Below are positions 4,483 through 42,583 of a stretch of DNA of 64,000 nt, one piece after another. The number at the start of each line of letters is the position of its first letter. Position 1 is the stretch's first letter. Location: NCBI GenBank assembly GCA_963696385.1, contig CAVOKF010000003.1, positions 512,001-576,000 on the forward strand. The letters are read 5' to 3'. The notes below the pieces were generated by a model. That model worked only from the letters and a program-made list of their open reading frames with translations, searched no databases and was not told where the DNA came from. The translations under genes were made by a program, and so were the position numbers. This DNA is from an uncultured delta proteobacterium. GTDB lineage: Bacteria; Myxococcota_A; Polyangia; Polyangiales; Polyangiaceae.

Positions 4483-4487
4483 CGCGT

Positions 4488-5405
4488 TCAATTCACTGGG
4501 GGTGCGCTTTCGGCAGGTACCCCCAACCGAATGTCGCCATCCCCCACTGCGGCTGGCTGGCCCAAGACGAAGGCGTCGTTAACGTCGCCGTGCCCAAAGG
4601 GCGCGCCGAACAGCACGGGGATACCGAGCGATCGCGTCCGCTCTTCGAGAACCTCCCCGATGGTGGGCCCATCTGCACCCTCGACGCGGCAGCGGTCGAA
4701 CGCTCCGAAGACGAGCGCGGACACATTCGCGAGATGGCCGCCCAGTACGAGAGAGGTCAGCATGCGATCGATTCTGTATGGCAGCTCGGCAACATCCTCG
4801 AGCGCGAGAACGCTTCCGCGGGGCACCGAGAGGCGACCGCCGGCGGCCAGGGCATGAAGGACTGCGAGGTTGCCACCGATCAGGGGACCTTGCGCGAACC
4901 CTCCGTGCAACACCCGTAGCCCCCGCCACTGCCGTCGAGCGGTCGGCCTCTCGAGGGCCCCAATCCAAGCCGCTCGCAGACGTGGCGTCGCCCGACTTCC
5001 CAGGCCAACCACGTTCGGACCGTGAATGGATGCCACCCCCGCTCGCCACGCCGCGGCATGGAGTACCGTGATATCGCTGAAGCCCACGAGCCACTTCGGC
5101 CGCAGGGCGAACTTGCCCCAAGGCAGATCGTCGATCATGCGTATTGCACCGTAGCCTCCACGAGTCGCGACAATCGCGCCGACCTCCGGGTCGAGCATCG
5201 CGCGCGAAAGCTCACTTCTCCGCCTGGCGTCGTCGCCCGCCAGATACCCGTCGCGGGAGAGTGCCCCTACGGACATCCGAAGTCGATAGCGGGCCCGAAG
5301 CCACCCCAGACCTCGCCAGAGCTCCTCTCGAGAACACGGACCCGACGGAGCGACCACGGCAGCCATGTCGCCCGGCGCGAGCGGTGCCGGAAATGCCAGC
5401 TGCAC
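4488..5405 (-). CDS. LD-carboxypeptidase (peptidase S66 family)
   Basis: Motifs VVAPSGP, RGGYG, LVGFSDIT (catalytic Ser), GGNL, LEDV (Glu) and FGHG (His). Confidence 0.93.
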   Translation of the reverse strand: MQLAFPAPLAPGDMAAVVAPSGPCSREELWRGLGWLRARYRLRMSVGALSRDGYLAGDDARRRSELSRAMLDPEVGAIVATRGGYGAIRMIDDLPWGKFALRPKWLVGFSDITVLHAAAWRAGVASIHGPNVVGLGSRATPRLRAAWIGALERPTARRQWRGLRVLHGGFAQGPLIGGNLAVLHALAAGGRLSVPRGSVLALEDVAELPYRIDRMLTSLVLGGHLANVSALVFGAFDRCRVEGADGPTIGEVLEERTRSLGIPVLFGAPFGHGDVNDAFVLGQPAAVGDGDIRLGVPAESAPPVN

Positions 5406-14003: not shown

Positions 14004-15818
14004 CTACGCAAGCACGCGAAGCGCACGGGCCCCCTTGCCTCCACCGCTCGGGCCGGCGGGGGCTTGGGGCGGCGGATGCCAGACCGCAAAATCCTTCGCC
14101 AGAGGGCCGGGAAGCGTAGGCTGCGAACGCCGCTCCAGCAGTTGAAAGTCGTGCGTCGCGAGGAGATCGAGCGACGCGACATCCGACGACGGCTGCGCCG
14201 CCCAGCGCTCGATCACATCCGCATTGCGCGCGATGACCCCATGTTGAGGATCGCGGCTCATCGCCTCCGAGAAGCGCTGTTGCATGCCTACGGCGTCGCC
14301 TCGCAGCGCGGCGATGCAAGCCAGATAGTTGAGCGCGAGCCCCGGCGCCGGATACTGCAGCTCGAGAGCCCGGCTCGCGTGGCGCTCGGCCTCGTCGAGC
14401 CGGCCCTCTCGGAAGTACGCGCCGGCCAAATCGAGATGCGCCGCGTGGTGGTCGCCCAAACGGCCCAGGATGGCCTCGTACTCCACGATGCCTTCGCGGA
14501 ACCCGTCGCGGAGGCCCTTGTTTCGCCGGAACCAATCGCGAAGGAACGCCGTGTCCTCGTCCGAAGCGTCGAACGTGGTTTTGAGTTCCTGAAAGTCGCG
14601 CTCGAAATAAAACTCGGCGTCGAGCCAGCCGGCCGCCACGGCCAAGTCGTAATCGCGCGTTCCCGGATAAACGGACAGGCAAGCAAAAATGGATTGATGC
14701 GGTTTGGCCCGTTCGAGAAACCTCAAGGTCTCCGCAAAAGTTTCCTGCGTCTCCCCGCGGTTGCCGATCATCATGTAATACCGGATCTTGATGCCGTACT
14801 TCTTCGCGAGTTCGCTCGAAGCGATGATCTCGTCAGGCGTAATCTTCTTGTCGATGGCGTCGAGAATTTTCTGCGAACCGGACTCGACCCCAAGGCTCAG
14901 CCGCTCGCATCCAGCGAGGCGCATCTCTCGCAAGAGCTCGTCACCGAGAACGTCAACGCGGGTGTCGCAGCTCCAGAGGAAGCGGATGTTGCGCTCCCGA
15001 ATTCCCCGGCAGAGAGCAAGCACACGCTTGCGGTTCGTCGTGAACGTGTCGTCCTTGATCTGAAGCATCTTGACCGGCGCCCGCGCGACCGCCTTCTCGA
15101 GGGCATCGAGCACGTACGGAACGGACTGACCGCGGTAGCCCCGCCCCCAGCTCGCCTCCGCACCGCAGAACGTGCAACGCCACGCGCAGCCGCGCGACGT
15201 CATCACAATGTGCGTGTCGAAGTAGTCGTGCACGGAAGCGAGCGCGTCGAGATCTTCGATCGCTGCCCGCTTTGGCGCAACGGCGAGCCGATGCCCATCC
15301 CGATAGACCGTTCCGGCGATGCCGGCCGGGCTCTCGCGCCGCTGCAATCGGTCGAGGATCTCGAGAAAGGTCTGCTCGCTCTCGCCGACGGCGATCGTGT
15401 CGATGTCTTCGTGGTGCGCGAGCATCTCTCGCGCGAGTGGCGTCGCGTGAGGACCGCCAACGACGACGTGCGATCTCGGGTGGATGCGCTTGATCTCGCG
15501 CGCAACCAGGGCCACCCCGCGCCGATTGGCCGTCCAACACGACAGGCCGTACACGTCGGCCTCCAAGACACCGATCGCGTGCTCAACGTGCCGCCAGGGA
15601 TAAGCGGATAGGTTGATGACCTTTACCGAATGTCCGGCGCGAAGCGCCTGCGCCCCGAGTGCGAAGAGACCGTACGGAGTCTGGAAGAAATCGCCGTCGA
15701 GGTCGCCCTGCGCGTACTCGGTCGGAGGCCCGTCGCCGAGAGGGTCGGGGGCTTCACCCGGCAAGGGGATTTTCCACGGGGGTGGGTACAACAACGCAAC
15801 GCGCATCCGGAGAAGCAT
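14004..15818 (-). CDS. B12-binding radical SAM protein with C-terminal TPR
   Basis: VVGGPHAT and AVGESE cobalamin-domain motifs, SRGCAWRCTFC (CxxxCxxC), DDTFT, GVESGS. Start 15818 or 15806. Confidence 0.92.
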   Translation of the reverse strand: MLLRMRVALLYPPPWKIPLPGEAPDPLGDGPPTEYAQGDLDGDFFQTPYGLFALGAQALRAGHSVKVINLSAYPWRHVEHAIGVLEADVYGLSCWTANRRGVALVAREIKRIHPRSHVVVGGPHATPLAREMLAHHEDIDTIAVGESEQTFLEILDRLQRRESPAGIAGTVYRDGHRLAVAPKRAAIEDLDALASVHDYFDTHIVMTSRGCAWRCTFCGAEASWGRGYRGQSVPYVLDALEKAVARAPVKMLQIKDDTFTTNRKRVLALCRGIRERNIRFLWSCDTRVDVLGDELLREMRLAGCERLSLGVESGSQKILDAIDKKITPDEIIASSELAKKYGIKIRYYMMIGNRGETQETFAETLRFLERAKPHQSIFACLSVYPGTRDYDLAVAAGWLDAEFYFERDFQELKTTFDASDEDTAFLRDWFRRNKGLRDGFREGIVEYEAILGRLGDHHAAHLDLAGAYFREGRLDEAERHASRALELQYPAPGLALNYLACIAALRGDAVGMQQRFSEAMSRDPQHGVIARNADVIERWAAQPSSDVASLDLLATHDFQLLERRSQPTLPGPLAKDFAVWHPPPQAPAGPSGGGKGARALRVLA

Positions 15819-16047
15819 TGTAGCTCCGGGCCGACGCGTTATGTGCAGGGCTTCACTTGGACGGAACCTCTTGCCCTCTCCGGCCCGGCGCGCGCCCCCA
15901 CGTCGGCCTCGGCGTGAACGACACGCAACGGCTGCCCCGCGGCGGGCGAAGGGGAAAAAGACCGATGGCCATTCCGCTCGGCAGACTCGCCTCGCTCCGC
16001 GCCGTTCCGAACCGCCGCCCCGGCTGGAGCCGCTCGACACGCTCCCG

Positions 16048-16063
16048 GATGTTCGCAAACATC
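16048..16063. promoter_or_regulatory. Palindrome GATGTT-CGCA-AACATC, possible operator
   Basis: Perfect 6-bp AT-rich inverted repeat ending about 27 nt upstream of the topB-recQ ATG. Confidence 0.3.
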
Positions 16064-16089
16064 TGCCACGCGAGGTCACCACCCCCCCG

Positions 16090-19000
16090 ATGACCATCCT
16101 CGTCGTTGCCGAAAAGCCAAGCGTCGCGCGCGACATTGCGCATGTGCTGGGGGCCCGCACCCGGTCCGAAGGCTACTTTCACGGCCCCGGTCACATCGTG
16201 ACATGGGCCCTGGGTCACCTCGTCACGCTGGCCGAGCCGCACGAGATCCATCCCGCGTGGAGAACTTGGCGGCTTGCCAATCTCCCGCTTCTTCCCCCGG
16301 CGTGGCCCTTGGTGGTCGCCGAAGGCACGCGCGCCCAGTTCGAAGTGGTTCGCAATTTGCTGCTGTCAAGCGAAATTCGCACCGTCATTTGCGCTACCGA
16401 TGCGGGTCGCGAGGGAGAGCTCATCTTCCGGTACATCTACGAGGCGGCCGGCGCGACCAAGCCCGTTCGCCGTTTGTGGATCTCGTCGTTGACGCCGGAG
16501 GCCATCGCCGCTGGCTTGCGTACGCTCAAGGATGGGAGCGCGTTCGACCGCCTCGCCGATGCAGCTCGTGGTCGCAGCCGCGCAGACTGGCTGGTCGGGA
16601 TGAACCTGTCGCGAGCGTATAGCGTCCTCCACGACGACAACCTGTCGGTCGGACGCGTGCAGACGCCGACGTTGGCCATGGTCGTGGAACGCGAGATCGG
16701 GATCCGAACCTTCGTGCCCGAGGATTATCTCGAGGTCGTCGCGACCTTCGGCCCGCAGACGCGCGATTTCGATCCCGACGATCCGAAGAGGGAGCGCCAG
16801 ACGTACGAGGGGACGTATCTGCGGGGTGGGACCCGTGAGCGAGACGCGCAGCGCCTGCCGCCGGACGGCAAAGACGCGGCCGCGATCGTCGAGCGCGCCC
16901 AACGCGGCTTCGCACGCATCGAGTCGATCGATCGTCGTTCGCGACACGTGCCGGCACCGGCACTTTACGATCTGACGGAACTCCAGCGTCATGCAAATCG
17001 GATCTACGGGTTTACCGCGCAGCACACGCTCGAGGTCGCGCAGACTCTCTATGAGAAATGGAAGCTTCTGAGTTATCCGCGGACGGACAGCCGACACCTC
17101 TCGAGCGCCGTCGCCGAAACCCTCGCGGCGGTCGTCGGAGCGATCGCCGCTCCCTACCAGGGGCTTGTCGCCGAGGGGACTGGGACACGACCGCTCGGTC
17201 CCCGCTTCGTAGACGACGCACGCGTCACCGACCACCACGCGATCCTTCCGACCGCCACCGTGGCCCCCGCCAGCCTGCCCGCAGACGAGCAAGCGATTTA
17301 CGATCTGGTATGCCGGCGCCTCCTCGCGGCGTGGCACAACAATCACGTCTACGCCGTGACGACGGTGCTCACGACCGTACAGTGGAACGCCGACCGGGAC
17401 CGCTACACGAGCGCGGGAACGAGCATCGAGAACGTGGGGTGGCGCGCGTTGGACCCCCAACCGGCGGGGGCCTCCGAGACTCGTCCGAAGGAAGGCCCAC
17501 GCGCCCCGGACCCATCGTTGCCGGGCGGCCTTGAAGCCGGTCTGCCTCGGCGCGTGGTCAACGCCAGGTCGGTCGCCAAGAGGACCCGACCGCCGCCGCG
17601 CTTCACCGACGGCACGCTGCTGACGGCGATGGAGACAGCGGGACGAACCCTCGACGAAGCCGAGGTCTCTCGTGCCATGCGCGAATGCGGCCTCGGCACA
17701 CCCGCGACACGGGCCGCGATCCTCGAGACTCTGGTTCGACGCGAATACGTCGTGCGCGAGGGAAAGACGCTCCAAGCGACGGACAAGGGAGTGGCGCTCG
17801 TCGAGATCGTGCATGAGCGCGTGAAGAGCCCCGCGATGACGGGCGAATGGGAATCCAAGCTTGCGCGGATCGAGCGCGGCGAGGAAAACCTCGCAAACTT
17901 CATGCGCGAGATCGAGATCTACGTCCGAGACGTCGTGGCAAGTGTGGCGTCGGGCACAGCGACGAGCGCCGGTCCCGATCGCGCGCCCGCCGGAACCCCA
18001 GCATCCCGCTACGTCCGAGACGTCGTGGCGAGTGGGGCGTCGGGCGCGGCGACCAGCACCGATCCGGATCGCCCGCCCGCCGGAACGCCGACACACCGCA
18101 CGGCGCGGTCGAACGACCTCGGCGTTCTGCTACGGACGTCGTTCGGCTTTCCCTCGTTTCGCCCGTACCAGGAAAACGTCTGCGTCGCGGCAGCGACGGG
18201 CAAGGACGTCCTTCTCGTCATGCCGACCGGCGCCGGCAAGTCGCTTTGCTATCAGCTTCCGGGCATCGCCCGCGGAGGAACGACACTCGTCGTGAGCCCG
18301 CTCATTGCGCTGATGGAGGACCAGGTCGCGCAGCTCTCCCGACGCGGCTTCGCCGCCGAGCGGATTCATTCCGGCCGCAATCGCGCAGACTCGCGCGCCG
18401 TATGCCGGGCTTATCTGGACGGCGCACTCGACTTTCTTTTCATCGCACCCGAGCGCCTCAAGGTACCCGGGTTTCCGGAGATGCTGGCGCGCCGCAAGCC
18501 CACGCTGGTGGCGATCGACGAAGCGCACTGCATTTCGCAATGGGGCCACGATTTCCGGCCCGACTACCGGATGCTGGGAGCACGCCTGCCCCTTCTGCGT
18601 CCCGCACCGGTCATCGCCCTCACAGCGACGGCAACCCCGATGGTTCAAGGCGACATCGTCGACGAGCTCCGACTCGAATCGCCGATGCGCTTCATTCACG
18701 GATTCCGTCGAACCAATATCGGCGTCGAAGTGATCGAACGAAGCCCGGGCGTCCGCGCGGACATCGTCCAGCGCCTGCTCGATAAAGCCGAGCGGCGACC
18801 GGCCATCGTCTACGCGCCGACTCGCAAGGAGGCCGAACAGCTTGCTCAAGAGCTGTCTCCGCGATTGCGCGCCGCTGCCTACCACGCGGGGCTTCGCGCC
18901 AGCGCGCGAGACGACGTCCAATCGGCGTTTCTCGGGGGCAAGCTCGACGCGATCGTCGCGACGACCGCGTTTGGAATGGGCATCGACAAGGCCGACGTTC

Positions 19001-20181
19001 GCCTGGTGGTGCACACCGCCCTACCCGCCTCCATCGAAGGGTACTATCAGGAGATTGGCCGCGCCGGACGCGACGGGAGGCCTTCGCGCGCCGTACTGAT
19101 CCATTCGTTCGTCGACACGAAAACACACGAGTTCTTTCTCGAGCGCGACTACCCTGACGCGAGCGTACTCGAGCGAGTGCAGGATGCCCTTTCGGCCGAC
19201 GCGAAATCCATCGCCGACGTCGCCGTGCGTTCTGGGGTGCCGGCCCCGGTCTTCGAGAAAGCGCTCGAGAAGCTCTGGGTCCACGGCGGTGCCCTCGTGG
19301 ACCCCGACGATACCATTCGGCGCGGTGGCGCGGACTGGCGCAGTGCCTACGAACGGCAGCGCGTTCACAAGAGCGAGCAACTCGCCAAGATGCGTCGCTA
19401 CGCGGAAACTCCCTCGTGTCGCATGCTTGCTCTCGTGGCGCACTTTGGCGATCTCAACGACCACGGATCTCCGTGCGGACTTTGCGACGTCTGCGCCCCT
19501 TCCGCGTGCGTCGGGCAGGCCTTTCGGAACCCGAATGCCGCCGAGCAACGCGCGGCGGCGCGCATCCTCGCCGCGCTTCGCGAGCGTGACGGACGGCCCG
19601 CGGGTCAACTGCACCGAGACCTCTTCGGCAACGGCGAGCTCGACCGGCGCTCGCTCGATCATGTGCTGGGAGGCCTTGCTCGATCGTCGCAGGTCACGAT
19701 CACCGGAGACGAGTTCGTGAAGGACGGCGCGACCATCGCCTTCCAGCGCATTTACCTGGGGCCGGCCGGGCGAAAGGCCGACACCCTTGCCGCGACCGAG
19801 ATCCGCATCGCCGTGGTTCCCGACGGCGCGCCTCGCGGAAGCCGGGGCAAGCCGGCCAAGCGAGGCGCCCGCCGACACGGGGCGCCTCCAGCCGCGAAGA
19901 GACGCGACAAGGATTCCGCGCAGCTCAACCATGTCAACCCGTCGAAATCAAGGGACGAAGCCTCGTCGCTCGAAGGAGCGCTGCGCGCGTGGCGCACCAA
20001 GGAAGCGAAGAGACGCGGCGTGCCTGCGTTCCGCATCCTCACGGACCGTACCTTGCTCGGAGTCGTGCGCGCGCGCCCAGCCGACGAAAATGAGCTCCTC
20101 GACGTCACGGGAATAGGGCCTACGCTCCTCGACAAGTACGGCCGTGAGCTCTTGGCGATCGTCGCCCAATCGGAGGCGTGA
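16090..20181 (+). CDS. topB: DNA topoisomerase III (type IA) fused to a RecQ-family helicase with Zn-binding and HRDC domains
   Basis: Topoisomerase part: AEKPSVA, ATDAGREGELI, GRVQTPT, SYPRTDS (catalytic Tyr), GLGTPATRA. RecQ part: MPTGAGKSLCYQ, DEAHCISQWGHDFRPDY, TATA, AFGMGIDK, QEIGRAGRDG, CR..CGLCDVC, C-terminal HRDC. One uninterrupted frame. Confidence 0.95.
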   Translation: MTILVVAEKPSVARDIAHVLGARTRSEGYFHGPGHIVTWALGHLVTLAEPHEIHPAWRTWRLANLPLLPPAWPLVVAEGTRAQFEVVRNLLLSSEIRTVICATDAGREGELIFRYIYEAAGATKPVRRLWISSLTPEAIAAGLRTLKDGSAFDRLADAARGRSRADWLVGMNLSRAYSVLHDDNLSVGRVQTPTLAMVVEREIGIRTFVPEDYLEVVATFGPQTRDFDPDDPKRERQTYEGTYLRGGTRERDAQRLPPDGKDAAAIVERAQRGFARIESIDRRSRHVPAPALYDLTELQRHANRIYGFTAQHTLEVAQTLYEKWKLLSYPRTDSRHLSSAVAETLAAVVGAIAAPYQGLVAEGTGTRPLGPRFVDDARVTDHHAILPTATVAPASLPADEQAIYDLVCRRLLAAWHNNHVYAVTTVLTTVQWNADRDRYTSAGTSIENVGWRALDPQPAGASETRPKEGPRAPDPSLPGGLEAGLPRRVVNARSVAKRTRPPPRFTDGTLLTAMETAGRTLDEAEVSRAMRECGLGTPATRAAILETLVRREYVVREGKTLQATDKGVALVEIVHERVKSPAMTGEWESKLARIERGEENLANFMREIEIYVRDVVASVASGTATSAGPDRAPAGTPASRYVRDVVASGASGAATSTDPDRPPAGTPTHRTARSNDLGVLLRTSFGFPSFRPYQENVCVAAATGKDVLLVMPTGAGKSLCYQLPGIARGGTTLVVSPLIALMEDQVAQLSRRGFAAERIHSGRNRADSRAVCRAYLDGALDFLFIAPERLKVPGFPEMLARRKPTLVAIDEAHCISQWGHDFRPDYRMLGARLPLLRPAPVIALTATATPMVQGDIVDELRLESPMRFIHGFRRTNIGVEVIERSPGVRADIVQRLLDKAERRPAIVYAPTRKEAEQLAQELSPRLRAAAYHAGLRASARDDVQSAFLGGKLDAIVATTAFGMGIDKADVRLVVHTALPASIEGYYQEIGRAGRDGRPSRAVLIHSFVDTKTHEFFLERDYPDASVLERVQDALSADAKSIADVAVRSGVPAPVFEKALEKLWVHGGALVDPDDTIRRGGADWRSAYERQRVHKSEQLAKMRRYAETPSCRMLALVAHFGDLNDHGSPCGLCDVCAPSACVGQAFRNPNAAEQRAAARILAALRERDGRPAGQLHRDLFGNGELDRRSLDHVLGGLARSSQVTITGDEFVKDGATIAFQRIYLGPAGRKADTLAATEIRIAVVPDGAPRGSRGKPAKRGARRHGAPPAAKRRDKDSAQLNHVNPSKSRDEASSLEGALRAWRTKEAKRRGVPAFRILTDRTLLGVVRARPADENELLDVTGIGPTLLDKYGRELLAIVAQSEA
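17919..18090 (+). repeat. 90-bp imperfect tandem duplication at the TopB/RecQ junction
   Basis: CTACGTCCGAGACGTCGTGGC... starts at 17919 and again at 18009, giving YVRDVVAS..SG.ATS..PDR.PAGTP twice. Confidence 0.9.
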
Positions 20182-20209: not shown

Positions 20210-21070
20210 TCAGGGCGCCGTCCCCCACGCAATAGTGGCGCCGATGTCGACCACGATATGCATGTTGGCGGTGAGCTTCGTGTCGTCCATGGCATTGTAC
20301 GAATAGTCGTTCGTCTGCGCGAACTCCATCGAGTAGCTCGGGTCGTGCAGCTCGCCCTTGAAGTAGAAGAAATCTCCAACCGGCACCGAGCCTGCTGCAC
20401 CCGTAAACCTGATCGTCAGTACGCTGTCGGCAGTCGCGGTAGATGGCGTGAAAGCGCTGACCGCGCCCGACACGGCTGCGACCCCAACCGCAGCGTAGGC
20501 ACTGCTGGCGGCGTTGTTGATATACGACGTGTAGACGTCGAAAATGAATCCAGAAAGACCGTCCGCTACAAAATAGTATTTCACGCTGACGGTGCTCAGA
20601 TCCAGCGCGGTCGTCCCCGTATTGACGATTTCAATCTCGAACGCTGCGCCACCGGTTTTCGTGGCATTGTCGGACTCGTACGTCAGCTCGACTGCACACG
20701 TCGTGCACGGGGCAGCCGCCTCCAGCGTCGATGCATCGTCGAGCGCCGACCCATCCTCCAGCGTCGATGCCTCCTCCGTCGTCGACGCATCCTCGGGCGC
20801 CGACGCGTCCGTGGCACTGCTGCTCTCGGAGCTTGTCTGCCCACCGCCACCCGAAGTGCCGGCGTCGTCGCTACTGCTCGATGGGGCATACACCGCGCTG
20901 TTGCCGGTCGACGAGGCACTCGAGCTTGGAACGGGTGCGGACGAAGCGGTCGATGCTTGCGTGACGGGTTGGGCGGTCTTGGCTACGTCGCCCGTGTCGG
21001 CAGCGCATGCGAAGAAGATGGCCGCGGGGACGAAGAACGCAGCGTGCTTAGCGTGACAGGCGTTGCGCAT
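20210..21070 (-). CDS. Probable lipoprotein with a C-terminal CBM3 cellulose-binding module
   Basis: IVNTGTTALDLSTVSVKYYF, QTNDYSY and terminal WGTAP are CBM3 hallmarks. Ser/Ala linker; FFAC lipobox-like motif. Confidence 0.8.
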   Translation of the reverse strand: MRNACHAKHAAFFVPAAIFFACAADTGDVAKTAQPVTQASTASSAPVPSSSASSTGNSAVYAPSSSSDDAGTSGGGGQTSSESSSATDASAPEDASTTEEASTLEDGSALDDASTLEAAAPCTTCAVELTYESDNATKTGGAAFEIEIVNTGTTALDLSTVSVKYYFVADGLSGFIFDVYTSYINNAASSAYAAVGVAAVSGAVSAFTPSTATADSVLTIRFTGAAGSVPVGDFFYFKGELHDPSYSMEFAQTNDYSYNAMDDTKLTANMHIVVDIGATIAWGTAP

Positions 21071-21293
21071 GGCGGGAAGCTGCGGGTCGAACGGAGCGCT
21101 CAGCCCAATCGCCGCGCGCCCCAACTCCGACTTTAATGTGGTAGCAAAAGTACGAATCACGTTCCACGACTCCCGCTATGATTCTCGACTCGGTGGTTTC
21201 GCGGTGGGTGTTTGTGTCAGCCCCTTGCGGCCACCACGATGCCGAACATGAGCCGCCCGAGTGCAGAAGAACGGGAAAGGAACCGGAGGATCC

Positions 21294-24171: not shown

Positions 24172-26724
24172 TCAGCGCGGTGCCCGCGCGCCATCCCCCG
24201 GTGGCGCGACGTCCACCTTGATCGGAGCGATTCCCCAAATCTCGCGCGCATAGGCACGTATCGTGGCATCGCTCGAGAACGCGCTGCCTCCGACGATGTT
24301 GAAGAGCGATCTCCTGGCCCAGTCTCTGGGCGACCGGTACGCGGCCGCGGCTTCCCGCAGCGCAGAGGCATAGGAATCGAAGTCCGCGCAGACCATGTAG
24401 GGGTCGGTTTCACGGAGCGTCCGAACGACGCCTGCGTACCGGGAGGGATCGCTCAGCGCGAAAAACGAGGATTCGAGTAGATCGAGAGATCGAGCGAGCT
24501 CAGGGCTCCGGGCGATGAAGCGACTCGGGGCGTAGCCGCTGCGCCAAAGCGCCTGGACTTGCTCAATCGTGTGCCCGCATAGAAAGAAATTCTCGGGACC
24601 CACAGCCTCGCGCAGCTCGATGTTCGCGCCGTCGAGAGTACCGACGGTGAGGGCGCCATTCATTGCGAGCTTCATATTGCTCGTGCCGGAAGCCTCCTTT
24701 CCTGCTTGCGAAATCTGTAACGATACGTCGATCGCGGGGATGATCGCCTGCGCCAGCGACACGCCGTAGTTCGGCACGAACACCACCTTCAATCGATCCC
24801 GGGTGGCTGGATCCCCGTTGACGACGTCTGCGACATCGTTGATGAGGCGGATGTGCGCCTTGGCCGTCGCGTACCCGGCCGCCGCCTTCCCCGCGAAAAT
24901 ATACACGCGTGGCGTAAGCCCCAGTTCGGTCGGCGCACCTTTGAGAAACGCATAGTGTGCGATGACTTCCAAGCACGCAAGCAGCTGCCGCTTGTATTCG
25001 TGAATGCGCTTGATTTGCGCAATGAACATCGCATTCGGGTCGACCGCGACCCCGGTGCGCTCTGCGAGCCGCGTCGCAAGCGCTCGCTTGTTCTCGAGTT
25101 TGGTAGCCCACAAGGCGTCGAGCAGCTCCGGTTGGGCGGCGCGCGTCGCCAGGCTCGAAAGCTGGGCAAAGTCGCCGCCGATCCAGTCGGCGCCGAGATT
25201 TTCGGACAGCAATCGAGCGAGCGACGGATTGGAATAAAGGAGCCAGCGGCGCGGTGTAACCCCGTTCGTCTTGTTGTTGAAGCGGCCCGGGAACATTTCA
25301 TAAAAATCGGGGAGCAAGTCGCTCTTTATGAGTTCGGTGTGCAGCTTTGCCACCCCGTTGACGCTGTGAGAGCCGAGGACGGCCAGGTGCGCCATTCGAA
25401 CTTGCGGAACCGGGCCCTCCTCGATGATCGACATTCGGCTCATGCGCGAGGAATCCATGGGCCAATGAATACTCACGTCGCGCATGAACCGATGATTGAT
25501 TTCGAAAATGATCTTCAGATGCCGAGGAAGGACACGCCCCAGCATCGGTACGGCCCACTTTTCGAGCGCTTCCGGCATCAGAGTATGGTTGGTGTATCCA
25601 ATGGATCGCTGAGTGAGATCCCACGCGAGATCCCAGCCGAGTCCCTCCTGATCGACCAGAACACGCATCAATTCGGCGACGGCGATGGAGGGGTGCGTGT
25701 CGTTCAAGTGGATGGCTGCGCGATCGGGAAACAGACGAAAATCGTCGTGCGCGCGCTTGAACTCCGCGACGATATCGGCAATCGAGCACGCCACGAAAAA
25801 ATATTGCTGCTTGAGACGCAGCTCCTTGCCGTGCTCGGTTTGGTCGTTCGGGTAGAGCACCTTCGAGATGTTCTCCACCTCCACCTTCTCTTCCACCGCG
25901 CGCAGGTAGTCGCCTTCATTGAAGAGGCGCAAATCGAAATCGCGCGACGCTCGGGCCGACCAGAGCCGGAGCGTATTGACGGTATCGGTCTCGTGGCCGA
26001 CGATGAACGAGTCGTAGGGAAGCCCGAGCACCAGCTGCCCGCCAACCCAGGCGACCACCAAACGCCCCCCGTCGTCGTGGCGCATCTCGGTCGTCCCATA
26101 AAAGCGCACGCGCTGCATTCGGTCGTGCCGCGGGAGTTCCCAGGGGTTGCCGTATTGAAGCCAATTGTCCGTGTGTTCGACTTGGTTGCCGCGCTCAATC
26201 CGTTGTTCGAAAATCCCATGCTCGTATCGGATGCCGTACCCGACGGCCGGCAACTCAAGCGTCGCCAGCGAATCCATGAAGCACGCCGCGAGTCGACCGA
26301 GCCCCCCGTTGCCCAACCCCGGATCGCCCTCCGCTTCGAGAACCTCGGCCAGGTCGTATCCGAGGGAGGATGCGACTTGATCAGCGGCGCCGTAAAGGCC
26401 GAGATTGAGCAGGCAGAGCCCTAAGCTCCGTCCGGTCAGAAATTCGGCGGACAGGTAATGCACCCTCTTGACGTCGTGCTCGACGTATGTGCGCTGAGTG
26501 GCGAGCCAGCGCTGAACCAACCGGTCGCGGACGCTATGCGCCATAGCCCGGTAGATGTCGACGGGGCCCGCCTCGTGTGCGTCTTTCACGCACGTGTAAA
26601 GTAGATGCTTCAGCAGGTCGCGTCGGAATTCCTCCGGGTCTCGCGAAGGCAGAGGCGACGAAGGGCCAAGGACCTTGCCATGGGGGCCGGAATCCACGTT
26701 CTTGTTCAGTCTGTTCGTCGTCAC
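24172..26724 (-). CDS. glgP: Glycogen/starch phosphorylase
   Basis: GLGNGGLGRLAACF, LRLKQQYFF, HLNDTHP, NKTNGVTPRRW, KRIHEYKRQ, EASGTSNMK (PLP lysine). Confidence 0.97.
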   Translation of the reverse strand: MTTNRLNKNVDSGPHGKVLGPSSPLPSRDPEEFRRDLLKHLLYTCVKDAHEAGPVDIYRAMAHSVRDRLVQRWLATQRTYVEHDVKRVHYLSAEFLTGRSLGLCLLNLGLYGAADQVASSLGYDLAEVLEAEGDPGLGNGGLGRLAACFMDSLATLELPAVGYGIRYEHGIFEQRIERGNQVEHTDNWLQYGNPWELPRHDRMQRVRFYGTTEMRHDDGGRLVVAWVGGQLVLGLPYDSFIVGHETDTVNTLRLWSARASRDFDLRLFNEGDYLRAVEEKVEVENISKVLYPNDQTEHGKELRLKQQYFFVACSIADIVAEFKRAHDDFRLFPDRAAIHLNDTHPSIAVAELMRVLVDQEGLGWDLAWDLTQRSIGYTNHTLMPEALEKWAVPMLGRVLPRHLKIIFEINHRFMRDVSIHWPMDSSRMSRMSIIEEGPVPQVRMAHLAVLGSHSVNGVAKLHTELIKSDLLPDFYEMFPGRFNNKTNGVTPRRWLLYSNPSLARLLSENLGADWIGGDFAQLSSLATRAAQPELLDALWATKLENKRALATRLAERTGVAVDPNAMFIAQIKRIHEYKRQLLACLEVIAHYAFLKGAPTELGLTPRVYIFAGKAAAGYATAKAHIRLINDVADVVNGDPATRDRLKVVFVPNYGVSLAQAIIPAIDVSLQISQAGKEASGTSNMKLAMNGALTVGTLDGANIELREAVGPENFFLCGHTIEQVQALWRSGYAPSRFIARSPELARSLDLLESSFFALSDPSRYAGVVRTLRETDPYMVCADFDSYASALREAAAAYRSPRDWARRSLFNIVGGSAFSSDATIRAYAREIWGIAPIKVDVAPPGDGARAPR

Positions 26725-26794
26725 GCTAGCATCATGACGTCCACCCGGAAGACCGGGTCGCGTCCGCTTGTTTTCGTCTACGTTTCCTGCATGA

Positions 26795-26896
26795 CTTCGT
26801 GCGGCGCGCCCCGTCGAACTGCACCCCGCTGTCCGGGGTGAGCCTGCGTTGCAGGCTGGCACTGTACTAAGGTGATTTCCTTGGGGCTTCGTCCCC
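26795..26896 (-). repeat. Dispersed structured intergenic repeat, copy 2
   Basis: Minus strand reads GGGGACGAAGCCCCAAGGAAATCACCTTAGTACAGTGCCAGCCTGCAACGCAGGCTCACCCCGGACAGCGGGGTG..., homologous to 7270-7369. Confidence 0.85.
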
Positions 26897-27002: not shown

Positions 27003-27761
27003 ATGACCTATTGCGTCGGCGTTCTTCTCCATGAGGGTATCATCTTCGCGTCCGACTCCCGCACCCACGCGGGCGTGGATAATTTCGCCTCGTTTTGCAA
27101 GATGACCGTCTTCGAAAAGGCCGGCGATCGCGTCCTGGTCCTGCTGAGCTCGGGCAATCTTGCGGGTACGCAGGCGGTCATCAGCGTGCTGCGACAGCGA
27201 AGCAACGCGACGGACGGTATGCCGAATCTTTGGACTGCGCGCACGATGTTCGACGTGGTCGTTCTCGTCTCCGACGCGATGCGCGACATCGAGCGCCGGG
27301 ACCGCCCCCACCTCGAGCGCAGCGAACTCAGCTTCAACGCGTCGTTCATCGTCGGCGGGCAGATCAAGGGCGAACCATTGCGCCTCTTTCGAATCTATGC
27401 CGAAGGAAACTTCATCGAGGCGGGCCCCGACACCCCATTCTTTCAGACGGGCGAAGCGAAGTACGGCAAGCCTATCCTCGATCGGGTGATCACACCTTCG
27501 ACGAGCCTTACGGCTGCGGCGAAATGCGTCCTCGTCTCGTTCGATTCGACCATGCGAAGCAACTTGTCGGTCGCGATGCCGATCGATCTGCTCTGCTACG
27601 AGCGCGACAGTCTGGCCGTTCGAATGCGGCGACGCTTCGATCAAAACGACGCGTATTTCACGACATTGAGCCGCCAATGGAGCGAAGGGGTTCGCACCGT
27701 CTTTGGGCAACTCCCAGAGCTCCCGTGGGTAAGCCCGACTCGCGGCGCGACCCCGTCCTAG
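27003..27761 (+). CDS. Proteasome-type protease (Anbu family)
   Basis: N-terminal MTYCVG (Thr1 nucleophile), SDSRTHAGVD, GNLAGTQ, GNFIEA, KYGKPILDR, STMRSNLSV. Confidence 0.93.
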   Translation: MTYCVGVLLHEGIIFASDSRTHAGVDNFASFCKMTVFEKAGDRVLVLLSSGNLAGTQAVISVLRQRSNATDGMPNLWTARTMFDVVVLVSDAMRDIERRDRPHLERSELSFNASFIVGGQIKGEPLRLFRIYAEGNFIEAGPDTPFFQTGEAKYGKPILDRVITPSTSLTAAAKCVLVSFDSTMRSNLSVAMPIDLLCYERDSLAVRMRRRFDQNDAYFTTLSRQWSEGVRTVFGQLPELPWVSPTRGATPS

Positions 27762-28033
27762 AGCACCGAACCCCTTGCCGGAGCGAGGATTTCAAGAATT
27801 CCCGGCCTCTCGCCAGACGCGGGTGACGAGCCATGCTTGCCGCATGGTGGGGAGCAGCAACTCCGCTAGAGGCGGGAAAGCCGCGGAAAAGCCGACGGGG
27901 CCAACATGTGCGGTGCTCTCGTCGATACCGGCAGCAAACCATGGCGGCGGGGCTTTTCGAGCCTACGGAGCCGGGGCTGGGCCGCCGGCCACTCCGAGGC
28001 GCGTGTGCACGCAAGTGTCTTGTTCGCGTGGCC

Positions 28034-28737
28034 CTAACCCATCGCGATTCCGAGGATGCGCCCGATCGCCGCCGTTGCGGCCATGGCCAGGCCGCCGCCG
28101 ACGATGACACGAAACGCCGCCCGCCCCATCGGCGCCCCCCGAGGTGCCCCCCGAGCGCGCCCAGCGCGGCAAGACTGGCCAACGACAGTCCGGCGATCGC
28201 AGGAACCCGAAAGAGGTTCGGCGTAACGATCAGGGCAACGAGTGGAACGGTGGCGAACGACGCGAAGCTGACTGCCGAGATCCACGCCGCCTGCAATGGG
28301 CGCGAAAGCGACCCAGGCTCGATTCCAAGCTCGTCGCGCATGTGAGCGGCCAGACGGTCGTGCGCGCTAAGCTCTATCGCAACCTTCATCGCAAGGTCCC
28401 GGTCGAGACCCCGTCTCGCATAAATCATCGCAAGCTCGTTGAGCTCGGCCTGCGGGTCCGCCGCGAGCTCGCGCTGTTCGCGGTCGATGTCCGCCTGTTG
28501 CGCATCGCGCTGCGAACTGACCGAGATGTACTCGCCCACCGCCATCGACATCGACCCGGCCACCAGCCCAGCGACACCCGCCACAAGAACCGCGGCTTTC
28601 GACGCGGCAGAAGCCGCCACGCCGACCATCAAGCTCGCCGTGGACACGATCGCGTCATCGGAACCCAGGACGGCAGCCCGTAGCCACGCCGCCCGCCCGC
28701 TCTGATGGCGCTCGAGATGGGTGCCAACTTTTCGCAT
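28034..28737 (-). CDS. VIT1/CCC1 family Fe/Mn transporter; frameshift near 28135
   Basis: WLRAAVLGSDD, SMAVGEYISVSSQRD, HMRDELG. The C-terminal GAPMGRAAFRV...IG continues in ORF 28034..28285 if one base is added to the C6 run at 28135-28140. Confidence 0.88.
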
Positions 28738-29080
28738 TCGAGCGGGCTTTAGCACGGGGTCCCGAAGGCCGGAAAAGCTCGACGATTTCTGCGGCGCGGG
28801 CGCGGCCCCTGCCGCAAACCTCTGACCTCCACGGGCCGGATCGCGGCCGGATCGCGGTGTTCCCCGGCAGATCGCCGGGTCAACGCCCCGCGCGAGCGAA
28901 ATCTTGCGCGAAGCTTGCACGACGCATCCCAGCCGGTGCCGGAGGGTGCTGGCCGAGCGCTTCCGCGACCCCGATGTTTGCAGAGAGCGACAGCTGTGGT
29001 CCCGGACGCCGTCGGTCGTTTTTTCAGTTTCGCACACGATAACTGGCAAACCGTCGCGGCTCGCTGGATCATGACCCTGG

Positions 29081-30127
29081 ATGGCGCCTAGCTCCTTGCA
29101 CTGCGCGCGCGGAGGCCGCGCCTTGTCCTTCTTCGCACTCTTTTGGGTGCTCGCGGCTTGCTTGACGGCCCATTCACCAGCAAGCTCGATGGGATCCCCG
29201 GCGGCGCGCGCTGCCCCGGATGCCGGCGATTCGCGCTCGCGCGACGATGGCGCCGCCCCGACCGCTAGCCCCTCGGCATCCATGGACCCGCAAGTCGTGC
29301 GGAATGAGGACCCGCCAGCCCCGGTGACCAAGGAGCTGCCTCGGGGCGGTCGAACCATCTTTCCGATTCACCGGCTCGTCGGCTTCTGCGGCACGCCAGG
29401 CGCACCTGCGCTCGGCGAACTGCAGGGCAATCTGCCGGTAAAGGTCAAGGCGCTCGAGGCCCAAGCCGCGCACTACGCCGACGGATCGCGCACGCTGCTT
29501 CCGGTGTTCGAGCTCATCGCGGTGGTCGTGCAGTCCGGGCCCGGACCCGACGGCAAATACCGTCGACGCGTGGATGACTCCGTGGTCGACGAATACTTGC
29601 GCTTGGCCCGGAAGGCGAAGGGGCTGATGCTCCTCAACATTCAGCCTGGGCAATCGGATTTCATGACAGAAGTCAAGTCGTTCGATGCGTACTTGCGGGA
29701 GCCCGACGTCGGTGTTGCGCTCGACCCCGAGTGGGCCATGAAGCCGAAGCAACGGCCTGGCGTCTTCTTCGGACAGACGACCGGGCAGATCGTCAACGAA
29801 GTCGCGGAATATCTATCGGGCCTCGTCGCGACAGGCGGACTCCCGGAAAAGGCCCTCGTATTCCACGAGGTCAATCGGGAGGTGTTGAAGGACGAATTCG
29901 TCGTCAGACCCTATCCGGGCGTCGCCGTCATCAAGAGCGTGGACGGGCTGGGGCCCGTGCATGCCAAGATGGCCACGTACCGGAACCTTATGGAGGTCAT
30001 GGCTCCCGGGGTACACCCCGGCTTCAAACTCTTTTTCGATGAGGACAGCCGGAACGGACACCGCCTGATGACCCCGAAGGAGGTCTTGTCGCTGTCGCCC
30101 CAGCCTGAATATGTGATGTACGAGTAG
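29081..30127 (+). CDS. Conserved hypothetical lipoprotein, possibly a TIM-barrel/glycoside-hydrolase-like fold
   Basis: Lipobox LAAC; motifs LLNIQPG, GVALDPEW, DGLG, GFKLFF. Confidence 0.7.
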   Translation: MAPSSLHCARGGRALSFFALFWVLAACLTAHSPASSMGSPAARAAPDAGDSRSRDDGAAPTASPSASMDPQVVRNEDPPAPVTKELPRGGRTIFPIHRLVGFCGTPGAPALGELQGNLPVKVKALEAQAAHYADGSRTLLPVFELIAVVVQSGPGPDGKYRRRVDDSVVDEYLRLARKAKGLMLLNIQPGQSDFMTEVKSFDAYLREPDVGVALDPEWAMKPKQRPGVFFGQTTGQIVNEVAEYLSGLVATGGLPEKALVFHEVNREVLKDEFVVRPYPGVAVIKSVDGLGPVHAKMATYRNLMEVMAPGVHPGFKLFFDEDSRNGHRLMTPKEVLSLSPQPEYVMYE

Positions 30128-34724: not shown

Positions 34725-34835
34725 CGGGTATCCCTCTTATGCCGCAGACCGCATGCGCCGGGCTGTTGTCCATGCCATCGGCTGAACGGACCGTCATGCG
34801 AGCGGGCTGTCACCCTAAAGTCCGTATGAGTTCCG

Positions 34836-34907
34836 TGGGCGCAGAGGGATTCGGACCCCCGACTTCGTCCGTGTGAAGGACGCACTCTACCGCTGAGTTA
34901 TGCGCCC
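34836..34907 (-). tRNA. tRNA-Val (anticodon CAC)
   Basis: GGGCGCATAACTCAGCGGTAGAGTGCGTCCTTCACACGGACGAAGTCGGGGGTCCGAATCCCTCTGCGCCCA folds as a cloverleaf; CCA not encoded. Confidence 0.93.
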
Positions 34908-42331: not shown

Positions 42332-42499
42332 CCAGGCGCGAGCGAGGCAGATGGCCAGAAACGCTCGAGTAGGCGCATTCATCGCCAGACTACCCGCGCG
42401 TGCGGCGCCCAGTCCGGAGCGAGTTGGCCACTCCTGCCTCCCTCAGCGACTGACCCTGCACCCCAACAGTCTGACCCTAAGTATCCTGAATCATTGGGG

Positions 42500-42583
42500 T
42501 GCGAAGGAGGGGACTTGAACCCCTATGCCAGTTACGGCGCTAGCACCTCAAGCTAGTGCGTCTGCCAATTCCGCCACCTTCGC
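42500..42583 (-). tRNA. tRNA-Leu (anticodon GAG)
   Basis: GCGAAGGTGGCGGAATTGGCAGACGCACTAGCTTGAGGTGCTAGCGCCGTAACTGGCATAGGGGTTCAAGTCCCCTCCTTCGCA, with a long variable arm. Confidence 0.96.

What the first reader, a model, noticed from the sequence alone, without database searches (positions are those of the whole stretch)
16090..20181. Topoisomerase III and RecQ helicase fused in one polypeptide
Seen: one 1363-aa frame with an intact type IA topoisomerase III core (TOPRIM acidic motif, catalytic SYPRTDS) followed directly by a full RecQ (motifs I-VI, Zn-binding Cys cluster, HRDC). Established: RecQ and Topo III cooperate as separate proteins in E. coli and as Sgs1-Top3 / BLM-TopoIIIa in eukaryotes to decatenate DNA and dissolve double Holliday junctions. 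Reverse gyrase is the classic helicase-topoIA fusion but has the opposite domain order and a different helicase. Inference: this is a single-chain dissolvasome-like enzyme. Similar fusions may already sit in databases under a plain topoisomerase label; I know of no biochemical characterisation.
Basis: partly seen in the sequence, partly recalled or inferred. Interest (0 to 1): 0.8.

Follow-up and report, generated by a model that had tools for sequence, protein, structure and literature searches.

The report
Natural topoisomerase III-RecQ fusion protein
This myxobacterium makes its DNA-untangling enzyme (topoisomerase III) and the DNA-unwinding motor that normally partners it (RecQ) as one long protein joined by a floppy linker; the fusion is real, widespread in soil bacteria and apparently unstudied.

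Summary
Window 16090-20181 (+) is one intact 1363-aa gene. It encodes a complete Topo III core (Toprim, Topoisom_bac, catalytic Tyr329), a 61-residue low-complexity linker, and a complete RecQ with Walker A, DEAH, a four-Cys zinc site and HRDC.

It is not a misassembly. Contigs from three studies cross the junction without indels. All 120 best database relatives have the same architecture.

The fusion occurs in about 40 of 401 sampled genomes of the window's phylum (Myxococcota) and in 5 of 201 Acidobacteriota. It is also found in an Oligoflexus MAG.

Fused topo cores form one branch apart from 20 stand-alone Topo IIIs. RecQ sits where those relatives carry C-terminal Toprim_Crpt repeats.

In all six fusion-bearing Myxococcota genomes checked, the fusion is the only Topo III.

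The linker is disordered and hypervariable, and AlphaFold2 fixes no docking (pTM 0.54). A tethered RecQ-Topo III decatenase/dissolvase is therefore the best reading. A rigid machine like reverse gyrase is less likely. Function is inferred only.

Six literature searches found no description. This scan flagged the same fusion in two other genomes.

The parts
16090..20181 (+). Whole fusion gene: 1363 codons plus stop, Topo III core - linker - RecQ.
   Evidence: The 120 best relatives share the architecture.
16099..16488 (+). TOPRIM domain (residues 4-133). Holds Glu8 (16111-16113) and the D104-A-G-R-E108 motif (16399-16413).
   Evidence: Pfam Toprim, 39.4 bits. It aligns to E. coli Topo III, where the motif reads D-P-D-R-E. 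'DAG' occurs in 121 of 121 fusions and in 20 of 20 stand-alone relatives.
16546..17904 (+). Type IA topoisomerase core (Topoisom_bac, residues 153-605).
   Evidence: Pfam, 347 bits. E. coli Topo III chains match at E 2.5e-82. The model matches 2o19_A with TM 0.82 normalised to the target.
17071..17091 (+). Active-site motif SYPRTDS. The catalytic Tyr329 lies at 17074-17076.
   Evidence: It aligns to E. coli 'TYPRSDC'. The Y-P-R core is kept in 121 of 121 fusions.
17635..17688 (+). Residues 516-533, the segment aligned to E. coli Topo III residues about 502-519. That stretch is the 'decatenation loop' as I recall it from the literature.
   Evidence: The alignment shows the same length, with one gap just after the segment. 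The loop's E. coli coordinates are recalled and come from no call.
17935..18117 (+). Variable linker (residues 616-676). It is rich in Pro, Ser, Ala, Gly, Thr and Arg.
   Evidence: Across 64 fusions the length runs from 28 to 173 residues, median 50. P+S+A+G+T+R make up 75%, and mean column identity is 0.29 against 0.76 to 0.85 in the modules. pLDDT is below 50 for residues 623-668.
17919..18086 (+). In-frame 90-bp tandem duplication, giving two 30-residue copies that start 'YVRDVVAS'. It repeats the end of the last topo helix and part of the linker.
   Evidence: 1.9 copies, 88% matches. P0003, at 93% identity, shares it. Contigs cover it with no indel.
18160..18636 (+). RecQ helicase lobe 1 (DEAD, residues 691-849). 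Motif 0 lies at 18142-18171, Walker A PTGAGKS at 18223-18243 and DEAH at 18517-18528.
   Evidence: PTGAGKS is kept in 121 of 121 fusions and DEAHC in 119 of 121.
18760..19077 (+). RecQ helicase lobe 2 (Helicase_C, residues 891-996), with motif VI QEIGRAGRDG at residue 987.
   Evidence: motif VI kept in 120 of 121. E. coli RecQ 1oyw matches at E 5.8e-90.
19150..19344 (+). Insertion of about 65 residues (1021-1085) between helicase lobe 2 and the zinc domain. It is predicted as three helices plus a beta hairpin, which looks like a winged helix. It carries the conserved K1061-L-W-x-H-G-G1067 motif.
   Evidence: The E. coli RecQ alignment breaks here. Secondary structure is H1024-1032, H1041-1048, H1052-1064, E1068-1070 and E1075-1078, with block pLDDT of 83-93. 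No Pfam hit reaches its cut-off.
19345..19494 (+). RecQ zinc-binding domain (residues 1086-1135) with Cys1110, Cys1129, Cys1132 and Cys1135.
   Evidence: Pfam RecQ_Zn_bind, 34.9 bits. It aligns to the E. coli Cys cluster. All four Cys are invariant in 64 sequences.
19510..19779 (+). Presumed RecQ C-terminal winged-helix region (residues 1141-1230).
   Evidence: Assigned by position and conservation only (mean column identity 0.66). Helices are predicted up to residue 1199, where the model ends. There is no Pfam hit.
19780..19977 (+). Basic, poorly conserved tail (residues 1231-1296).
   Evidence: Sequence. Mean column identity 0.30.
19978..20163 (+). HRDC domain (residues 1297-1358).
   Evidence: Pfam HRDC, 67.2 bits. 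By my count of the table, 30 of the 120 listed fusions lack this hit.

Best explanation
The gene encodes a bifunctional enzyme. A catalytically competent Topo III core is covalently tethered to a catalytically competent RecQ helicase by a disordered linker of 28 to 173 residues.

Proposed mechanism (inferred). RecQ uses ATP to bind and unwind duplex or branched DNA such as gaps, converging forks, hemicatenanes and migrating Holliday junctions. This produces the single strands that a type IA topoisomerase needs as its cleavage substrate. The tether keeps one Topo III core at that site, so strand passage (decatenation, unlinking, dissolution) is coupled to unwinding at 1:1 stoichiometry, without SSB or an RMI1-like adaptor as matchmaker.

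RecQ occupies the position where stand-alone relatives carry C-terminal DNA-binding repeats. In these organisms Topo III therefore probably reaches DNA mainly through its own helicase.

Shown: the anatomy, residue conservation, distribution, sole-Topo III status and the disordered linker. Inferred: both activities and their coupling.
For: - Both modules pass their family models. They align to E. coli Topo III (E 2.5e-82) and E. coli RecQ (E 5.8e-90).
- The model's topo module matches 2o19_A (TM 0.82 on the target) and its RecQ module matches 6crm_A (0.73).
- Catalytic residues are kept across 121 fusions: Y-P-R 121 of 121, PTGAGKS 121 of 121, DEAHC 119 of 121, motif VI 120 of 121, zinc Cys cluster 121 of 121.
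- The fusion is old and maintained. It is found in about 40 of 401 Myxococcota genomes in 10 families, in 5 of 201 Acidobacteriota and in Oligoflexus.
- The 23 fused topo cores sit on one side of a branch with SH-aLRT 99.
- The linker is unconserved, low in complexity and predicted disordered.
- The fusion has no Toprim_Crpt domain, while 7 of 9 stand-alone relatives carry it.
- In G000 and 5 of 5 other fusion-bearing Myxococcota genomes, the only Topoisom_bac hits are the fusion and one other frame. That other frame is TopA in G000.
- There is no conserved neighbour that could be a separate adaptor.
- The known cooperation of E. coli RecQ and Topo III in catenation and decatenation is described in passages I read in PMC13760219.
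Against: - There is no biochemical or genetic datum for any member.
- Transcription of this gene is not shown. The RNA-library contigs laid were only 90-95% alike and none bridges the junction.
- AlphaFold2 gives no confident relative placement of the modules (pTM 0.54), so a direct interface is unsupported.
- Coupling is not indispensable in the clade. Six same-family genomes carry a stand-alone RecQ of this subfamily with no topo gene upstream. Four of the five searched show only one Topoisom_bac hit.
- Three of five fusion-bearing genomes keep a second RecQ.
- The fused topo core shows no fusion-specific insertion and only one group-specific residue. Nothing in it signals adaptation to the helicase.
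Confidence: 0.7

Rival explanations
1. The fusion exists only for co-expression or stoichiometry. The two modules act independently on DNA, and the fusion merely ensures equal dosage, with no mechanistic coupling between unwinding and strand passage.
For: - The linker is hypervariable and disordered, and tandem repeats expand and contract in different lineages.
- No docking is predicted (pTM 0.54).
- The topo core is not remodelled.
- RecQ of this subfamily also functions alone in relatives.
Against: - Fused topo cores form one long-maintained branch across phyla.
- Topo III was never found free in the six fusion-bearing Myxococcota genomes checked.
- Topo III has lost the C-terminal repeats that its stand-alone relatives carry. 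That suggests dependence on the helicase for DNA engagement.
- Even a flexible tether enforces a high local concentration.
Confidence: 0.15
2. The protein is a reverse-gyrase-like ATP-driven supercoiling enzyme. The helicase module gates the topoisomerase so that ATP hydrolysis gives directional (positive) supercoiling in a mesophile.
For: It is a covalent SF2 helicase plus type IA topoisomerase, as in reverse gyrase. The ESM Atlas lists a reverse gyrase cluster as a feature neighbour at 0.86.
Against: - The domain order is opposite.
- The rgy model scores 103 bits against a cut-off of 471.7, and only on the topo part.
- The helicase is a full RecQ with Zn and HRDC domains, not the reverse gyrase helicase-like module.
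- The modules are separated by a disordered linker of 28-173 residues.
- In the fold search, no listed solved chain aligned over more than 679 columns, so none spans both modules.
Confidence: 0.07
3. The fusion serves a mobile element or anti-phage defence rather than chromosome maintenance.
For: Near the fusion, one Acidobacteriota locus holds TrbC/VirB2- and VirB3-like frames (L029) and another holds an rve integrase frame (L028). The fusion's cross-phylum distribution suggests some horizontal transfer.
Against: - In the window the neighbours are a B12-radical SAM protein, a CBM_3 protein and glycogen phosphorylase.
- No neighbour is shared among the 10 loci examined.
- It is the sole Topo III and sole RecQ of this 6.9-Mb genome.
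Confidence: 0.04
4. The fusion is an assembly artefact, or one module is a dead remnant.
For: The junction contains a tandem repeat, a classic place for misassembly.
Against: - Contigs from three studies cross the junction with 0 to 7 differences and no indel.
- All 120 best relatives are fused, including those from complete genomes.
- All catalytic motifs of both modules are conserved.
Confidence: 0.01

Closest known systems
E. coli RecQ plus topoisomerase III (TopB), with SSB: separate proteins that together catenate and decatenate duplex DNA and resolve converging forks
   Same: The same two enzyme families. The topo half aligns to E. coli Topo III over residues 4-607 (E 2.5e-82). The helicase half aligns to E. 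coli RecQ (E 5.8e-90), with the zinc cluster also aligned. The expected chemistry is identical.
   Different: - Here they form one polypeptide in the order Topo III then RecQ.
- Topo III lacks a C-terminal DNA-binding region of its own.
- TOPRIM reads D-A-G instead of D-P-D.
- RecQ carries an insertion of about 65 residues that looks like a winged helix, and scores below the RecQ equivalog cut-off (TIGR01389, 479 against 640).
[quoted passage not shown]
   Same: It is the only well-studied covalent helicase-type IA topoisomerase fusion. The abstract of PMC7245102, seen in the listing, calls this fusion unique to hyperthermophiles.
   Different: - The domain order is opposite.
- Reverse gyrase has a non-RecQ helicase packed directly onto the topo. 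Here a complete RecQ sits behind a disordered tether.
- The rgy model is far below its cut-off.
- These hosts are found in soil, peat and wetland metagenomes, not in hot environments.
Eukaryotic dissolvasome: BLM-TOP3A-RMI1/2 and Sgs1-Top3-Rmi1
   Same: A RecQ-family helicase with an HRDC domain working with a Topo III-type enzyme. The function proposed here is the same: dissolution and decatenation.
   Different: The eukaryotic complex is non-covalent and needs the RMI1 adaptor. No adaptor gene is conserved next to the fusion. I did not search the genome for RMI1-like OB-fold proteins.
Stand-alone Topo III of Myxococcota (720-930 aa, with Toprim_Crpt C-terminal repeats)
   Same: The same core subfamily: 43-49% identity, the same D-A-G TOPRIM motif, no indel differences longer than one residue and only one group-specific residue.
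   Different: Seven of the nine scanned carry Toprim_Crpt repeats after the core. The fusion has RecQ in that position. On the tree they form the other side of the branch.
Stand-alone RecQ of the same subfamily (Acidobacteriaceae, some Polyangiaceae and others)
   Same: They align over the whole RecQ half, insertion and C-terminus included, at 49-67% identity. They share a 40-row clade with all 25 fused RecQ modules, with SH-aLRT 99.
   Different: They have no topo module and no Topo III gene in the 1.9-3.6 kb held upstream.

Membership tests
Bacterial DNA topoisomerase III (type IA, TopB) | TOPRIM domain with the conserved Glu and acidic cluster | tested here: met
   Toprim scores 39.4 bits. 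Glu8 and D104-A-G-R-E108 are present. The second Asp of E. coli's D-x-D is Gly, as in 20 of 20 stand-alone Topo IIIs of the phylum.
Bacterial DNA topoisomerase III (type IA, TopB) | Type IA core fold with the catalytic tyrosine | tested here: met
   Topoisom_bac scores 347 bits. Tyr329 lies in SYPRTDS and aligns to E. coli TYPRSDC. The model matches 2o19_A with TM 0.82 on the target.
Bacterial DNA topoisomerase III (type IA, TopB) | Scores above curated Topo III models and better than Topo I models | tested here: met
   PRK07726 scores 619.5 against a cut-off of 597, and TIGR01056 scores 523.9 against 515.75. topA_bact scores only 162.6 against 456.4.
Bacterial DNA topoisomerase III (type IA, TopB) | Decatenation loop | tested here: inconclusive
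   Residues 516-533 align over the full length of E. coli residues about 502-519. The loop's coordinates are recalled, and its function here is untested.
Bacterial DNA topoisomerase III (type IA, TopB) | Own C-terminal DNA-binding region after the core | tested here: not met
   There is no Toprim_Crpt or zinc-ribbon hit. The linker and RecQ follow the core directly. Seven of nine stand-alone relatives carry Toprim_Crpt.
RecQ family helicase | SF2 motor with motif 0, Walker A, DEAH and motif VI | tested here: met
   DEAD scores 96 bits, Helicase_C 77 bits and TIGR00614 386 bits against a cut-off of 219.8. The motifs lie at residues 685, 712, 810 and 987.
RecQ family helicase | Zinc-binding domain with four Cys | tested here: met
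   RecQ_Zn_bind scores 34.9 against a cut-off of 25. Cys1110, Cys1129, Cys1132 and Cys1135 are invariant in 64 sequences and align to E. coli.
RecQ family helicase | HRDC domain | tested here: met
   HRDC scores 67.2 against a cut-off of 23.8. It is optional in the fusion family: 30 of 120 listed members lack the hit.
RecQ family helicase | Winged-helix domain after the zinc domain | tested here: inconclusive
   There is no Pfam hit. The model stops at residue 1200, inside this region.
RecQ family helicase | Equivalog of E. coli RecQ (TIGR01389) | tested here: not met
   It scores 479.4 bits against a cut-off of 640.2, in three stretches. It belongs to a separate RecQ clade that carries an insertion.
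Reverse gyrase | N-terminal helicase-like module followed by a C-terminal type IA topoisomerase | tested here: not met
   The order here is topo first, then helicase.
Reverse gyrase | Scores above the rgy model | tested here: not met
   TIGR01054 scores 103.2 against a cut-off of 471.7, and only the topo part matches.
Reverse gyrase | ATP-dependent positive supercoiling | not testable with these tools
   This needs biochemistry.
RecQ-Topo III dissolvasome (functional class) | ATP-dependent dissolution of double Holliday junctions, or decatenation that requires both activities | not testable with these tools
   This needs biochemistry. Only the presence of both intact modules is shown.

The most novel reading that the evidence does not exclude
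The fused Topo III may have handed DNA engagement over to its helicase. RecQ stands where stand-alone relatives carry C-terminal DNA-binding repeats, and no free Topo III was found in the six fusion-bearing Myxococcota genomes checked. Strand passage would then be obligatorily ATP-gated. That would make the protein a mesophilic, motor-driven unlinking enzyme, convergent with reverse gyrase in logic. It could perhaps change linking number directionally or track branch points processively, which separate RecQ and Topo III cannot do.
Probability: 0.2. Interest if true: 0.8.

Novelty: new variant of a known kind. Interest (0 to 1): 0.6.

Why it matters
In bacteria, the RecQ-Topo III partnership rests mainly on in vitro work with E. 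coli proteins, which do not form a stable complex. A gene fusion kept for a long time in at least three phyla is independent, 'Rosetta-stone'-type evidence that the two enzymes work together in vivo.

The asymmetry adds to this. In the fusion-bearing genomes checked, Topo III is never free, while RecQ sometimes is. That suggests all Topo III function in those organisms runs through RecQ.

Practically, the protein is a ready-made 1:1 single-chain complex. It suits cryo-EM and single-molecule study of how unwinding feeds strand passage. The naturally variable tether (28-173 residues) can be used to test how much physical coupling matters.

It also corrects a statement in print that only hyperthermophiles have fused a helicase to a type IA topoisomerase. 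That statement appears in the abstract of PMC7245102, seen.

Tried and rejected
- **Complex prediction.** Complex prediction for the topo core and the RecQ motor as two chains was not available.
- **AlphaFold2 model.** The model covers residues 1-1200 (mean pLDDT 82.5, pTM 0.54). It gives confident modules but no confident mutual placement. I treat this as no evidence either way on a direct interface.
- **D-A-G TOPRIM motif as a sign of an inactive topoisomerase.** Rejected. 20 of 20 stand-alone Topo IIIs of the phylum read the same.
- **Fusion-specific features of the topo core.** There is no indel longer than one residue and only one group-specific position, R164 against E.
- **Conserved neighbour or adaptor gene.** None was found in the window. 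None was found among 89 flanking frames of 10 fusion loci.
- **Pfam on the insertion, the winged-helix region and the linker.** Nothing reached a cut-off.
- **G559's 1272-aa open frame as a RecQ with a different N-terminal module.** Rejected. The N-terminal 680 residues have no Pfam hit and no likeness to the topo half. It looks like an open frame of high-GC DNA.
- **RNA evidence.** Contigs of RNA run X18 lie on both halves but are only 90-95% alike, so they come from a relative. None bridges the junction, and DNA carry-over is not excluded. Transcription of this gene is therefore not shown.
- **Earlier findings by sequence.** The search of earlier findings by sequence gave nothing.
- **Literature.** Six searches found no description of a natural Topo III-RecQ fusion. 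PMC2459239 is not held. Subscription journals are mostly outside the library.

Full report
**Observation.** Window 16090-20181 (+) is a single open frame of 1363 codons. Pfam finds Toprim (residues 4-133), Topoisom_bac (153-605), DEAD (691-849), Helicase_C (891-996), RecQ_Zn_bind (1086-1135) and HRDC (1297-1358). All six are above their cut-offs. NCBIfam places residues 3-623 in 'DNA topoisomerase 3' (PRK07726, 619.5 bits, cut-off 597). It places residues 681-1017 in the RecQ family (TIGR00614, 386 bits, cut-off 219.8). The frame is open upstream to 15613, but relatives start at the equivalent of ATG 16090.

**Is the junction real?** The junction carries a 90-bp in-frame tandem duplication (17919-18086, 1.9 copies, 88% matches), so a check was warranted. 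Contigs of public metagenome runs from three studies cover it:
- X1 record 1 spans 16000-18568 with 7 differences and no gap.
- X4 record 19 spans 17374-18653 with none.
- X9 records 29 and 30 tile 17707-18550.

No insertion or deletion was listed. One of these studies may be the source of the window itself. Independently, all 120 best relatives in the protein database (1147-1441 aa) carry both the topoisomerase and the RecQ domains. Some come from genomes of 12 Mb named Labilithrix luteola and Pendulispora albinea. Their sources call them 'DNA topoisomerase 3' or 'ATP-dependent DNA helicase RecQ'. The closest relative (93% identity, labelled Polyangiaceae) shares the linker duplication.

**Topoisomerase module.**
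- It aligns to E. coli Topo III over residues 4-607 (E 2.5e-82).
- The predicted structure matches E. coli Topo III chains (2o19_A, TM 0.82 on the target).
- Glu8, Tyr329 (in SYPRTDS) and the TOPRIM cluster are present. Y-P-R is kept in 121 of 121 fusion proteins.
- The TOPRIM motif reads D-A-G-R-E where E. coli has D-P-D-R-E. I considered this a possible sign of inactivity and rejected it, because 20 of 20 stand-alone Topo IIIs of the phylum read the same.
- The segment aligned to what I recall as the E. coli decatenation loop has the same length.
- Compared with 20 stand-alone relatives, the fused cores have no indel longer than one residue and a single group-specific position.
- What differs is the C-terminus. 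Seven of nine stand-alone relatives carry Toprim_Crpt repeats after the core. The fusion has none and continues into the linker and RecQ.

**Linker.** After a conserved last helix ('FM..IE.YVR.VVG.V') comes a stretch that is 28-173 residues long in 64 fusions (median 50, 61 in the window). It is 75% Pro, Ser, Ala, Gly, Thr and Arg. Its mean column identity is 0.29, against 0.76 for the topo core and 0.85 for the helicase. Several lineages have expanded their own tandem repeats in it. AlphaFold2 gives pLDDT below 50 for residues 623-668.

**RecQ module.**
- It aligns to E. coli RecQ (1oyw, E 5.8e-90), including the zinc cluster.
- Walker A is kept in 121 of 121 fusions, DEAHC in 119 of 121, motif VI in 120 of 121 and the four Cys in 121 of 121.
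- It differs from E. coli RecQ by an insertion of about 65 residues between helicase lobe 2 and the zinc domain. The insertion is predicted with good confidence as three helices and a hairpin. It carries a conserved K-L-W-x-H-G-G motif.
- It scores below the RecQ equivalog cut-off (479 against 640).
- On a tree of 90 helicase cores, all 25 fused modules fall in one 40-row clade (SH-aLRT 99), apart from 48 canonical RecQs. That clade also holds 15 stand-alone RecQs, one of which (L023) starts at a contig end and so may be a truncated fusion.
- HRDC is optional in the family: 30 of 120 listed members lack the hit.

**Whole-chain model.** The first 1200 residues were folded with a 64-sequence alignment. 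Mean pLDDT was 82.5 but pTM only 0.54. In the fold search, no listed solved chain aligned over more than 679 columns, so none spans both modules. Whether the modules dock is therefore open, and the evidence in hand fits a flexible tether.

**Distribution.**
- In 401 genomes sampled from the window's phylum I count about 40 with the fused form. Of these, 29 show one match spanning both halves, 9 show both halves in one open frame, and 2 are probable. They lie in 10 families. This is a floor, because a stricter filter was used and 616 matches were not listed.
- In 201 Acidobacteriota genomes, 5 are fused.
- Named records with the full fusion include Solibacteraceae, Bryobacterales, Terriglobia, Acidobacteriaceae, Thermoanaerobaculia and an Oligoflexus MAG.
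- The ESM Atlas holds six clusters with this domain set at score 0.99. The three shown have 322, 96 and 70 members.
- On a tree of 43 topo cores, the 23 fused rows are one side of a branch (SH-aLRT 99) against 20 stand-alone Myxococcota Topo IIIs. This is compatible with one origin. However, the tree is unrooted and the stand-alone rows come from one phylum only.
- The RecQ tree needs at least 3 changes between fused and stand-alone states, so later losses of the topo module, or transfers, are likely.
- Stand-alone RecQs of this subfamily had no Topo III gene in the upstream sequence held, in 14 of 14 loci with 1.9-3 kb and 6 of 6 same-family loci with about 3.5 kb. Split adjacent genes were therefore not seen.

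**Genomic setting.**
- In the window the neighbours are unrelated: a divergent B12-binding radical SAM protein, a CBM_3 protein and glycogen phosphorylase.
- Ten fusion loci from other genomes share no neighbour.
- The window's genome (6.94 Mb, 96% complete) has only two Topoisom_bac genes, TopA (TIGR01051, 635 bits) and the fusion. It has one RecQ-family gene above cut-off, the fusion.
- Five other fusion-bearing Myxococcota genomes likewise have just one other Topoisom_bac frame besides the fusion. Three of the five have a second RecQ.
- Of five same-family genomes with a stand-alone RecQ, four show a single Topoisom_bac hit.
- In the genomes I checked, Topo III thus appears either fused to RecQ or not at all, while RecQ can stand alone.

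**Mechanism.** The best-supported reading is a tethered RecQ-Topo III enzyme. The helicase creates and holds the single-stranded or branched substrate. The attached type IA core passes strands through it, giving ATP-dependent decatenation, unlinking of converging forks and dissolution of recombination intermediates. This is what E. coli RecQ and Topo III do together, according to passages of PMC13760219 that I read. That both modules are active, and that they are coupled, is inferred from conservation and anatomy and is not shown. The rivals are:
- pure co-expression without coupling;
- a reverse-gyrase-like supercoiling machine, disfavoured by domain order, helicase type and the disordered tether;
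- a mobile-element or defence role, for which only two Acidobacteriota loci show nearby conjugation or integrase frames;
- an artefact, which is contradicted.

**Novelty.** Six full-text searches found no description of a natural Topo III-RecQ fusion. A November 2026 paper on Topo III and RecA discusses RecQ-Topo III cooperation without using the word 'fused'. The abstract of a 2020 paper calls reverse gyrase a fusion made uniquely by hyperthermophiles (PMC7245102, listing). The library lacks most subscription journals, so absence from print is not proven. This scan has flagged the same fusion in two other genomes (e1-7193247 and e1-6721993), and my results agree with those notes. I class it as a new variant of a known kind. 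The partnership and the idea of helicase-topoisomerase fusion are known. This architecture, its spread and its apparent replacement of free Topo III are not described.

Noticed in passing
window 19150-19344, and loci L027, L031, L033, L037-L046 and L048: The RecQ module belongs to a distinct RecQ clade. Its members carry an insertion of about 65 residues that looks like a winged helix, with a conserved K-L-W-x-H-G-G motif, between helicase lobe 2 and the zinc domain. The clade also exists as stand-alone proteins in Acidobacteriaceae, a Ktedonobacteraceae MAG and some Myxococcota. The insertion's role is unknown.
   Followed up: partly
Genomes G075, G080, G230 and G070 (same family as the window): These relatives have a stand-alone RecQ of the fusion's subfamily and only one Topoisom_bac hit, whose frame length resembles TopA. 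They seem to have no Topo III at all. G002 has two full hits plus a fragment.
   Followed up: partly
Linkers of P0019, P0032, P0034, P0047 and P0093, and window 17919-18086: The inter-module linker is a hot spot for lineage-specific tandem repeat expansion. Examples are GGGSA repeated five times and a unit of about 9 residues repeated many times in the Pendulispora protein.
   Followed up: partly
L029:7848-8767 and L028:8502-9023: Downstream of the fusion, one Acidobacteriaceae locus has TrbC/VirB2- and VirB3-like frames. A Terriglobia locus has an rve integrase frame. Some copies may sit on or near conjugative or integrative elements.
   Followed up: no
window 14004-16160 (-): A divergently oriented B12-binding radical SAM protein with a TPR repeat lies directly upstream. 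Its longest open frame overlaps the start of the fusion gene, so its true start is probably further in.
   Followed up: no
window 15613-16089 (+): The fusion's frame stays open for 477 bases upstream of the likely start. It reads as an Arg/Pro/Ala-rich sequence with no counterpart in relatives. This is probably non-coding open frame in high-GC DNA.
   Followed up: partly
window 20210-21160 (-), 24172-26862 (-) and 27658-29358 (-): Downstream genes are a CBM_3 cellulose-binding-domain protein, a glycogen/carbohydrate phosphorylase (996 bits) and a VIT-family protein.
   Followed up: no
window 34835-34907 (-) and 42498-42583 (-): tRNA-Val (CAC) and tRNA-Leu (GAG) genes. No other Rfam family reached its gathering score in the window.
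   Followed up: no
L129 (G559:C33), frame 1242-4850: A 1202-codon open frame has a RecQ core (70% identical to the window's) starting at about residue 690. The N-terminal 680 residues match nothing and look like non-coding open frame.
   Followed up: yes
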